Shown piece after piece: positions 12,001 through 15,000 of a stretch of 64,000 bases of DNA (the stretch's first letter is position 1; each line of letters starts with the position of its first letter). Origin of the DNA: Eledone cirrhosa (taxonomy: Eukaryota); the NCBI GenBank assembly GCA_964016885.1, contig OZ024742.1, positions 12,276,001-12,340,000 of the forward strand, written 5' to 3'. The notes under the pieces were generated by a model. That model saw only the letters and a list, made by a program, of their open reading frames with translations. It did not search any database and was not told where the DNA came from. A program made the position numbers and the translations under genes.

Positions 12001-15000
12001 AAACGGTGCTGATGATGGCTAACAAGCTTGAAACTAGTGCATCGTTCCTGTGTCAGTGTTGAACAAAAGGGTGACGTGGTTGCCTTAACACCGTATTGCA
12101 TAGATTCAGGCTGTTCAGTTTGTTGACAAACGAACAAAGCGGCGTTATAATAAGCGTCCGCTAAACTGATGCGTGCATATATGCATGTGTACCTGTATGT
12201 ATATATATGTATATATATATATATATATATATATATATATATATATATATATATATATATGTATATATATATATATATATATATATATATATATATATAT
12301 ATATATATATATATATATATATATATATATATATATATATACATATATATGCATGCTACTGTGCGTCTGTATACATATATGTATGTACGTATACATACAT
12401 ACTTACATTTAAGAAAATGCCATGCTAAGAGTGAGAAATGAAATTTCGTTTTCATTTTTTTTCAACTTATCGTTTTCGGTATGCCTGACCGATTTAACTC
12501 ACTCAATATGCAAATTAGGCTGCTCAGCCTTTAATTTTCATAAGGAAAGTATATACTTTCGAACGTTCAACTATCTGGCAGATGGGTAAACGGTGCTGAT
12601 GATGGCTAACAAGCTTGAAACTAGTGCATCGTTCCTGTGTCAGTGTTGAACAAAAGGGTGACGTGGTTGCCTTAACACCGTATGGCATAGATTCAGGCTG
12701 TTCAGTTTGTTGACAAACGAACAAAGCGGCGTTACAATAAGCGTCCGCTAAACTGATGCGTGCATATATGTATGTGTACCTGTATCTATATATATGTATA
12801 TATATATATATATATATATATATATATATATATATATATATATATATATATATATATATATATATGCATTCTACTGTGCGTCTGTATACATATATGTATG
12901 TACGTATACATACATACTTACATTTAAGAAAATGCCATGCTAAGAGTGAGAAATGAAATTTCGTTTTTATTTTTTTTCAACTTATCGTTTTCGGTATGCC
13001 TGACCGATTTAACTCACTCAATATGCAAATTAGGATGCTCAGCCGTTAATTTTCATAAGGAAAGTATATACTTTCGAACGTTCAACTATCTGGCAGATGG
13101 GTAAACGGTGCTGATGATGGCTAACAAGCTTGAAACTAGTGCATCGTTCCTGTGTCAGTGTTGAACAAAAGGGTGACGTGGTTGCCTTAACACCGTATGG
13201 CATAGATTCAGGGTGTTCAGTTTGTTGACAAACGAACAAAGCGGCGTTATAATAAGCGTCCGCTAAACTGATGCGTGCATATATGTATGTGTACCTGTAT
13301 GTATATATATGTATATATATATATATATATATATATATATAAATATATATATATATATATATATATATATATATATATATATGTATATATATATATATAT
13401 ATATATATATATATATATATATATATATATATATATATATATATATATATATATATATATATATACATATATATGCATGCTACTGTGCGTCTGTATACAT
13501 ATATGTATGTACGTATACATACATACTTACATTTAAGTAATGGCCATACTAGGAGTTAGAAATGAAATTACGTTTTAATTTTTTTTAACTTATCGTTTTC
13601 TGTATGCCTGACCGATTTAACTCACTCAATATGCAAATTAGGCTGCTCAGCCGTTAATTTTCATAAGGAAAGTATATACTTTCGAACGTTCAACTATCTG
13701 GCAGATGGGTAAACGGTGCTGATGATGGCTAACAAGCTTGAAACTAGTGCATCGTTCCTGTGTCAGTGTTGAACAAAAGGGTGACGTGGTTGCCTTAACA
13801 CCGTATGGCATAGATTCAGGCTGTTCAGTTTGTTGACAAACGAACAAAGCGGCGTTATAATAAGCGTCCGCTAAACTGATGCGTGCATATATGTATGTGT
13901 ACCTGTATGTATATATATGTATATATATATATATATATATATTTGCATGCTACTGTGCGTCTGTATACATATATGTATGTACGTATACATACATACTTAC
14001 ATTTAAGTAAGTGACATACTAAGAGTGAGAAATGAAATTTCGTTTTCATTTTTCTTCAACTTATCGCTTTCGGTATGCCTGACCGATTTAACTCACTCAA
14101 TATGCAAATTAGGCTGCTCGCTCAGCCGTTAATTTTCATAAGGAAAGTATATACTTTCGAACGTTCAACTATCTGGCAGATGGGTAAACGGTGCTGATGA
14201 TGGCTAACAAGCTTGAAACTGGTGCATCGTTCCTGTGGCAGTGTTGAACAAAAGGGTGACGTGGTTGTCTTAACACCGTATGGCATAGATTCAGGCTGTT
14301 CAGTTTGTTGACAAACGAACAAAGCGGCGTTATAATAAGCGTCCGCTAAACTGATGCGTGCATATATGTATGTGTACCTGTATGTATATATATGTATATA
14401 TATATATATATATATATATATATATATATATATATATATATATATATATATATATATATATATATATATATATATATATATATATACATATATGCATGCT
14501 ACTGTGCGTCTGTATACATATATGTATGTACGTATACATATATACTTACATTTAAGTAAGTGCCATACTAAGAGTGAGAAATGAAATTTCGTTTTCATTT
14601 TTTATTCAACTTATCGTTTTCGGTATGCCCGACCCATTTAACTCACTCAATATGCAAATTAGGCTGCTCAGCCGTTAATTTTCATAAGGAAAGTATATAC
14701 TTTCGAACGTTCAACTATCTGGCAGATGGGTAAACGGTGCTGATGATGGCTAACAAGCTTGAAACTAGTGCATCGTTCCTGTGTCAGTGTTGAACAAAAG
14801 GGTGTCGTGGTTGCCTTAACACCGTATGGCATAGATTCAGGCTGTTCAGTTTGTTGACAAACGAACAAAGCGGCGTTATAATAAGCGTCCGCTAAACTGA
14901 TGCGTGCATATATGTATGTGTACCTGTATGTATATATATATATATATATATATATATATATATATATATATATATATATATATATATGCATGCTACTGTG

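What the first reader, a model, noticed from the sequence alone, without database searches (positions are those of the whole stretch)
13719..13750. Near-fixed non-canonical ribozyme core: GUG cleavage triplet and U.U at the base of stem II
Seen: in all the copies I inspected position 17 is G, and stem II almost always opens with T...T instead of the G10.1-C11.1 pair (the unit near 26250 has agctC-gaaac). Known: the NUH rule disfavours G17, which can pair with C3 and extend stem I into the core. Inference: either a crippled founder copy was amplified at the DNA level, making this a satellite born from a dead retrozyme, or this is a natural attenuated hammerhead variant rescued by tertiary contacts or dimerisation.
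Basis: partly seen in the sequence, partly recalled or inferred. Interest (0 to 1): 0.7.

Follow-up and report, generated by a model that had tools for sequence, protein, structure and literature searches.

The report
Satellite founded by an edited ribozyme
About 100 tandem copies of a common self-cutting-RNA repeat all share the same five A-to-G changes, one of them at the cutting site, likely because an RNA-edited and probably crippled copy was written back into DNA and then multiplied in place, so the odd ribozyme core is likely a scar and not a new working variant.

Summary
Observation confirmed: G17 in 94 of 94 window units, U10.1/U11.1 in 93 of 94. The two oddities have different causes. 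U.U is family-wide: 12,405 of 23,447 H17 cores in this genome, and a published natural variant. G17 is private to this 52-kb, 102-core array; elsewhere it is at mutation background (24 copies). The array is one clade inside a young GUA retrozyme subfamily and differs from it at exactly 5 of 436 positions, all A-to-G on the ribozyme strand (including A17 and A10.2). Other loci carry pure A-to-G clusters (4, 5 and 12 changes) with ADAR-type neighbours. Best reading: an A-to-I-edited retrozyme RNA was reverse-transcribed, then expanded by DNA block duplication; the core now decays at the neutral rate, and equally long arrays keep A17. The scan already noted edited-RNA scars on other DNA of this genome; new here is that an edit hit the cleavage site and founded a satellite.

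The parts
1..48503 (+). Tandem retrozyme array, window part (94 of 102 cores); begins about 4.1 kb left of the window (G000:C3:12,271,876, unit position 116) and ends at unit position about 120, both ends in TA runs
13475..13942 (+). One repeat unit: about 436 non-microsatellite bases plus a variable TA run (core-to-core spacing 455-611)
13700..13764 (+). Type I hammerhead: stem I (13713-13718 with 13750-13755), 3-nt bulge 13710-13712, distal pairs; predicted cut 13749/13750
13719..13725 (+). Core C3-A9; C3 predicted to pair with G17 (probability 0.97; 0.0 in a family copy)
13726..13739 (+). Stem II with U10.1.U11.1 (family-wide) and G10.2.U11.2 (array-private, A-U in the family)
13743..13748 (+). 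Six-base palindromic stem III/loop 3, invariant in all subfamilies aligned; cannot close in a monomer, predicted to pair between two ribozymes
   Evidence: PMC4209133
13749..13749 (+). G17, array-private A-to-G change at the cleavage site
13727..13727 (+). Array-private A-to-G change at 10.2
13487..13487 (+). Array-private A-to-G change (unit position 13)
13779..13779 (+). Array-private A-to-G change (unit position 306)
13813..13813 (+). Array-private A-to-G change (unit position 340)
13631..13638 (+). Octamer motif ATGCAAAT, 88 nt before C3 here and 100 nt before C3 in the G10.1-C11.1 subfamilies; possible internal promoter element (inferred)
13906..13942 (+). TA microsatellite of the unit, with a G after 4-5 TA repeats in 80 of 97 parsed array units (possible sixth A-to-G; similar interruptions occur in some relatives, so not counted)

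Best explanation
This is a 102-core tandem array of a genome-wide hammerhead repeat family whose units all differ from their closest dispersed relatives by the same five A-to-G changes, likely because one A-to-I-edited RNA of this retrozyme was reverse-transcribed and inserted, after which the array grew by DNA block duplication and its probably slowed ribozyme core decayed neutrally. Steps: (1) shown: the parent family has U10.1.U11.1 and GUA and is dispersed in over 11,000 exact-core copies; (2) inferred: it cleaves as a dimer through its palindromic stem III and is mobilised by a Penelope-type enzyme; (3) shown: five founder changes, all A-to-G on the ribozyme strand; inferred: ADAR made them, on double-stranded RNA from the family's many inverted insertions or its own folds; (4) inferred: the first insertion held several identical units (rolling-circle copy of one RNA) or one unit; (5) shown: later block duplications with a strand-symmetric mutation spectrum; (6) predicted: G17 pairs with C3 and slows cleavage about 10- to several-hundred-fold; shown: no G17 lineage has spread from the array in the searches made.
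For: Array versus per-locus majority of 28 close loci: 5 differences, 5 A-to-G, repeated with 85 loci. Background: 10 of 101 singleton substitutions in 55 loci picked without regard to A-to-G are A-to-G; chance of 4 of 4 further changes 1e-4, or 1.6e-3 at a 20% rate. Independent pure clusters: L062 4 of 4, L160/L239 5 of 5 (both include A17), L238 12 shared by 6 full units and (11 covered) a partial one. All 23 distinct sites of five clusters have a 5' U or A (86 of 129 A in the unit; p 4e-5), against 14 of 20 for DNA-level A-to-G inside the array (p 0.006); upstream G depletion is the ADAR motif (PMC5625713, passages). Mirror test: A339G in 24 loci, T338C in 6 (p 0.0014), pure clusters in 2 of 24 versus 0 of 6. 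Array monophyletic 99/96 inside the GUA subfamily (33 of 103 pieces used). Later variants: 230 distinct, 123 shared, A-to-G 20 versus T-to-C 24; nearest partners mostly 4 or 8 units apart. Core: 7 variants in 12 catalytic positions, 0.58 per site versus 0.53 elsewhere (p 0.69). G17 outside the array: 24 copies versus 23,447 H17. Terminal pieces end at unit positions 55-66 (73 of 173) or 113-122 (72 of 173), 2 of 173 near the cut site.
Against: No RNA evidence of expression, editing or cleavage. The array's own five sites alone do not prove the neighbour bias (p 0.13), and the five clusters were chosen by eye for purity. Most G17 loci outside the array (11 of 13 examined) and most A339G loci (22 of 24) are not clusters; A17G (13 copies) is no commoner than the average A position (189 carriers over 12 positions) and near T16.1C (8), so editing scars are rare (1 of 55 unbiased loci had 3 private A-to-G). 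L062 and L160 are the same subfamily and group together (96/82), so a small shared G17 source is not excluded. Rolling-circle versus single-unit founder cannot be told apart in this array. No partner Penelope element was searched for. G17 variants of tertiary-stabilised hammerheads keep activity (8-100-fold slower, about half extent; PMC3884650), so 'dead' is too strong.
Confidence: 0.75

Rival explanations
1. Crippled founder by ordinary DNA mutation: a monomer or source copy collected five point changes in the genome, then expanded in tandem.
For: G17 occurs singly at background rate in 11 of 13 other loci examined; DNA-level expansion is shown; A-to-G is a transition.
Against: DNA-level changes in this family are about 10% A-to-G and strand-symmetric; 5 of 5 is unlikely; loci with 12 of 12 A-to-G exist, and none of the T-anchored loci shows a pure T-to-C cluster (0 of 6; 0 of 12 aligned loci of 27 fetched).
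Confidence: 0.12
2. Reverse-transcriptase error burst: the Penelope-type enzyme put dC opposite A several times in one pass, and the copy was then duplicated as DNA.
For: Gives the same strand and type of change; needs no editing enzyme.
Against: Does not explain the strict 5' U/A context or the same 12 changes in every unit of a young multi-unit insertion unless that too was DNA-amplified; no such bias is visible in most insertions.
Confidence: 0.07
3. A selected, attenuated but working hammerhead variant (GUG plus U.U) rescued by tertiary contacts or dimer formation.
For: G17 hammerheads cleave in vitro and in cells, and unpublished natural G17 motifs are mentioned (PMC3884650, parts 1-3); the stem I bulge and A-rich loop 2 are kept; 89 of 101 units have an intact 12-nt core.
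Against: Core mutates at the neutral rate in the array; G17 has no dispersed lineage; across subfamilies position 17 is A, U or C; C3-G17 pairing predicted at 0.97.
Confidence: 0.06

Closest known systems
Metazoan non-LTR retrozymes (Cervera and de la Pena 2020, PMC7229834; passages and part 4 of 6 read; Li, Clavereau and Pollet 2026, bioRxiv 10.64898/2026.07.22.740005; parts 1-2 of 5 and term search read)
   Same: Low-GC tandem units each with a type I hammerhead, dimers to long multimers, thousands of dispersed copies, proposed rolling-circle copying by Penelope-like elements.
   Different: Unit is longer (455-611 with a TA run); this array carries five fixed A-to-G changes including the cleavage site. 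Neither text, in what I read or searched, reports edits fixed in genomic copies (the 2020 paper names RNA editing once as a possible source of circRNA heterogeneity).
Dimeric hammerheads with short palindromic helix III (Cervera and de la Pena 2014, PMC4209133, part 1 of 4; Perreault 2011, PMC3088659, legend of Fig. S8)
   Same: Two-pair helix III with a 2-nt palindromic loop; predicted to need a neighbouring copy.
   Different: Keeps a full helix II and bulged helix I, so it is the canonical, not the minimal, form.
Natural U10.1-U11.1 hammerheads (Perreault 2011, PMC3088659, section 8 read; figure not seen)
   Same: Stem II opens with U.U, described there as the best tolerated mismatch.
   Different: Here it marks an expanded family of 12,405 or more genomic copies.
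Engineered G17 hammerheads (Kalweit and Hammann 2013, PMC3884650, parts 1-3 of 5)
   Same: G17 with predicted C3-G17 trap.
   Different: Those were designed mutants of monomeric ribozymes; here G17 is a natural founder change in a dimer-type ribozyme that also has U.U and G10.2.U11.2.
ADAR hyper-editing of repeats (Porath 2017, PMC5625713, passages)
   Same: Clustered A-to-G on one strand, G depleted upstream, in repeat-derived RNA.
   Different: Here the marks are in genomic DNA, inherited by every unit.

Membership tests
Type I hammerhead ribozyme | Core C3-A9, G12-A14, A15.1-U16.1 | tested here: met
   89 of 101 array units intact at all 12 positions
Type I hammerhead ribozyme | Helices I and II supported by covariation | tested here: met
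   16 hand-picked subfamily representatives: 93% of cells paired, 8 pairs with double changes, score 0.343 versus 0.165 shuffled and at most 0.09 slid; sequences are related, so not a probability
Type I hammerhead ribozyme | H (not G) at position 17 | tested here: not met
   G in 102 of 102 array cores; met in the parent family
Type I hammerhead ribozyme | Watson-Crick pair 10.1-11.1 | tested here: not met
   U.U in 101 of 102; a published natural exception
Type I hammerhead ribozyme | Match to an Rfam hammerhead model at gathering score | tested here: not met
   0 matches in the window; family copies were not scanned
Type I hammerhead ribozyme | Site-specific self-cleavage | not testable with these tools
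   needs kinetics
Metazoan non-LTR retrozyme | Low-GC tandem units of a few hundred bases, each with a type I hammerhead motif | tested here: met
Metazoan non-LTR retrozyme | Many dispersed insertions | tested here: met
   11,753 exact family cores; 85 separate loci analysed
Metazoan non-LTR retrozyme | Expressed as linear and circular monomer RNA | not testable with these tools
   no RNA holder listed
Metazoan non-LTR retrozyme | Mobilised by a Penelope-like element | tested here: inconclusive
   two fixed internal end points, TA targets and inverted arms fit PMC11167929; no partner element searched
Metazoan non-LTR retrozyme | No LTR, PBS, PPT or coding frame in the unit | not tested
   no ORF or PBS scan was run on the array
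Copy of an ADAR-edited RNA | Clustered A-to-G on the RNA strand only | tested here: met
Copy of an ADAR-edited RNA | G depleted 5' of the changed A | tested here: met
   0 of 23 cluster sites; the array's five sites alone are not significant
Copy of an ADAR-edited RNA | Same sites edited in RNA against matched DNA | not testable with these tools

The most novel reading that the evidence does not exclude
ADAR edits the cleavage-site adenosine (A17) and stem II of these GUA retrozyme RNAs in vivo, acting as an off-switch that keeps circles from re-cutting or as a host brake on the element; this array and two other loci are fossils of such switched-off RNAs. It would bear on the open question of how the hammerhead is blocked in animal retrozyme circles (PMC7229834, Discussion). 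A17 is changed in 3 of the 5 clean clusters, but most of these were found by asking for G17, and 99.9% of insertions outside the array keep H17, so it can only be a minority route.
Probability: 0.1. Interest if true: 0.75.

Novelty: new member of a known kind. Interest (0 to 1): 0.4.

Why it matters
It removes a candidate 'new ribozyme core': one oddity is a known, family-wide variant and the other a founder scar. What remains is a clear case of RNA editing likely becoming heritable DNA sequence, here at a ribozyme's cleavage site and multiplied into a 52-kb satellite, plus a natural pair (GUA family unit versus five-change array unit) for testing G17 and U.U in a dimer-type hammerhead. Shared edits across units also bear on the proposed rolling-circle model of retrozyme spread, though the scan has noted that before in this genome.

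Tried and rejected
Rfam at gathering score: no match. RNA runs: no RNA holder listed; contigs of four runs of unrecorded kind only showed the array alleles at 13779 and 13813 to be a small minority of family sequence, and two of the runs are one sample that may be the source of the assembly. Genome-wide degenerate counts as a strand test: confounded by a sister subfamily with C7 (25,022 hits), so replaced by anchored tests. Co-occurrence inside the 31-nt core alone was weak (1 of 13 G17 copies with a further A-to-G; 3 of 70 for the T control beyond the C7 subfamily mark). Idea that G17 is needed for very long arrays: rejected, arrays of 94 and at least 59 units keep A17. Idea that the C2:152.885 Mb copy descends from this array: rejected, other subfamily and other changes. 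Counting the G in the TA run as a sixth edit: dropped, relatives have similar interruptions. Counting founder units from shared variants: unresolved (3 to 42 groups by threshold). 3' G preference: not significant. Whole-motif folding z-scores were weak (-0.3 to -2.1). Paper searches for edits fixed in retrozyme or retrotransposon copies and for octopus hammerheads listed nothing on point; the library lacks most subscription papers, and the 2026 preprint's supplements could not be seen. The search for the newt satellite-2 promoter paper did not list it. Rows dropped: pieces under 88% identity or 50 nt, loci under 300 nt covered, 15 of 27 C7-subfamily control loci that did not pass the alignment filter.

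Full report
What is there. The first 48.5 kb of the window is one tandem array of a roughly 436-base unit plus a TA run of variable length. It starts about 4.1 kb left of the window and holds 102 hammerhead cores over 52 kb. The genome is a 3.0-Gb animal assembly; earlier scan notes call it octopus-type, which I did not test. Each unit has a type I hammerhead on the + strand. Rfam gives no match at gathering score, but stems I and II covary across 16 subfamily representatives. Stem III is two pairs around a 2-nt loop, a six-base palindrome invariant in all 16, the design reported to need a dimer of ribozymes (PMC4209133, part 1 read).

U.U is family-wide. The genome has 23,447 exact cores of this layout with H17; 12,405 of them open stem II with T...T. 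The exact parent core (U.U, GUA) occurs 11,753 times, and a sister subfamily with C7 brings the degenerate count to 25,022. A family this expanded and young (several loci are 0-2 changes from the majority) has evidently kept spreading with U.U, and U10.1-U11.1 is a published natural variant (PMC3088659, section 8 read).

G17 is private. Only 113 exact cores have G17, 89 of them in this array. In the parent subfamily 13 dispersed copies have A17G, about the average for an A of the core (189 carriers over 12 positions) and near the 8 with T16.1C. On a tree of 118 rows (33 of 103 array pieces, one real copy per dispersed locus, 14 other G17 pieces) the array is one clade (99/96) nested in the youngest GUA group, and the other G17 copies are scattered.

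The founder's five changes. The array majority differs from the majority of 28 close dispersed loci at exactly five positions, all A-to-G on the ribozyme strand: 13487, 13727 (10.2), 13749 (17), 13779 and 13813 in the finding's unit. They are in 100-102 of the 101-102 pieces that cover them, while the next commonest variant is in 29, so they precede the expansion. Ordinary private changes in the family are A-to-G in 10 of 101 cases (55 loci), so four further A-to-G beside G17 have a chance of 1e-4 (1.6e-3 at a 20% rate). Other loci show the same thing: L062 (4 of 4) and L160/L239 (5 of 5), both including A17, and L238, where 6 full units share 12 A-to-G changes and a partial one has the 11 it covers. 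All 23 distinct sites in five such clusters have U or A on the 5' side (86 of 129 expected share; p 4e-5), against 14 of 20 DNA-level A-to-G changes inside the array (p 0.006). In a mirror test at one TpA step, A339G occurs in 24 loci and T338C in 6, with pure clusters in 2 and 0; 12 aligned of 27 fetched T16.1C loci of the sister subfamily show no pure T-to-C cluster. Upstream G depletion in clustered A-to-G is the ADAR signature (PMC5625713, passages). Limits: the clusters were picked by eye; the array's five sites alone give p 0.13 for context; most G17 and A339G copies are single changes; L062 and L160 may share a source; no RNA was available.

After insertion. The units are 1.6% from their own majority, with 230 distinct variants, 123 shared, and symmetric A-to-G (20) and T-to-C (24); nearest partners are mostly 4 or 8 units apart. 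That is DNA block duplication. The 12 catalytic positions carry 7 variants, 0.58 per site against 0.53 elsewhere: no sign of selection, with limited power. Arrays of 94 units (93 with A17) and at least 59 units (54 with A17) exist elsewhere, so crippling is not what made the satellite. The tree's base is a polytomy, compatible with a multi-unit first insertion, but the founder number could not be fixed. Terminal pieces of insertions end at unit positions 55-66 or 113-122 (73 and 72 of 173), hardly ever at the cut site (2), often as inverted arms in TA runs; this array ends at about 120. Internal initiation and extension of both strands at AT-rich targets is reported for a Penelope element (PMC11167929, section 3 part 1), and retrozymes are proposed to be Penelope derivatives (bioRxiv 10.64898/2026.07.22.740005, parts 1-2).

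Is it dead? Folding predicts the C3-G17 pair at 0.97 and 4.1 kcal/mol below the open form, against 0.0 in a family copy. Published G17 variants are at least 300-fold slower in minimal hammerheads but only 8-100-fold slower, to half extent, with tertiary contacts (PMC3884650, parts 1-3). The stem I bulge and A-rich loop 2 are kept (their role as tertiary contacts is inferred). So 'slowed and no longer propagating' is the safe prediction; zero activity is not shown.

Comparison and novelty. It works like a non-LTR retrozyme array (PMC7229834), and the parent family fits that class on the features I could test; the array's own motif fails the H17 rule, so I file it as a mutated member, not as a working hammerhead. 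Neither core oddity is new. Editing marks fixed in retrozyme DNA were not listed by my paper searches, but several earlier scan notes report them on other DNA of this genome; I had reached the reading before the look-up (note), and those notes are not independent support. What this locus adds is an edit at the cleavage site itself, seen in three loci, and its growth into a satellite. The bold version, ADAR as an off-switch at A17, is allowed but unlikely as a general mechanism because 99.9% of insertions keep H17. Verdict: real, largely explained, interest 0.4.

Noticed in passing
L238:1936-5401 (G000:C1:365.503-365.507 Mb): Young insertion whose six full units share 12 A-to-G changes (a partial unit has the 11 it covers) and almost nothing else private; the cleanest edited-template record seen here.
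   Followed up: partly
L106 and L107 (G000:C9:2.854 Mb; C50): Three A-to-G changes inside stem II/loop 2 in two near-identical copies, probably one locus assembled twice.
   Followed up: partly
genome-wide, e.g. L241, L015: Sister subfamily with C at position 7, also U.U and GUA, roughly 13,000 copies by subtraction; about 60 dispersed copies of it have C16.1, possibly a small lineage with a GCA triplet.
   Followed up: partly
L031-L035, L054-L060, L071: Further subfamilies with G10.1-C11.1 or C10.1 stems and GUU or GUC triplets share the same core spacing and palindrome.
   Followed up: partly
window 13631-13638 and every unit: Octamer motif at a fixed distance before the core, also in divergent subfamilies (15 of 15 units in L257); recalls the snRNA-type promoter of newt satellite 2 (recalled, not found).
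   Followed up: partly
L192, L206, L215, L217: A339G in a single unit of otherwise near-identical young multi-unit insertions; could reflect editing of a linear multimer or a DNA hot spot.
   Followed up: no
G000:C4:212.91-212.96 Mb; C2:122.62-122.67 Mb: Other satellite-sized arrays of the same family with canonical A17 (94 and at least 59 cores).
   Followed up: partly
window about 57200-60330, - strand: Broken LINE-type retrotransposon: endonuclease (PF03372) and zf-RVT (PF13966, just under cut-off) in separate frames; further fragments at 54500-55000 and 62400-63250 by eye.
   Followed up: partly
window 54975-55350 and 56865-57237: A stretch of about 370 bases present twice, nearly identical (by eye).
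   Followed up: no
window 49600-49690 and 63505-63595: Short near-perfect inverted repeats (hairpin elements) flanked by TA runs; similar ones lie around the copy in L062.
   Followed up: no
window 49130-49240: Short SINE-like sequence right of the array, also beside many dispersed loci (label recalled, not tested).
   Followed up: no
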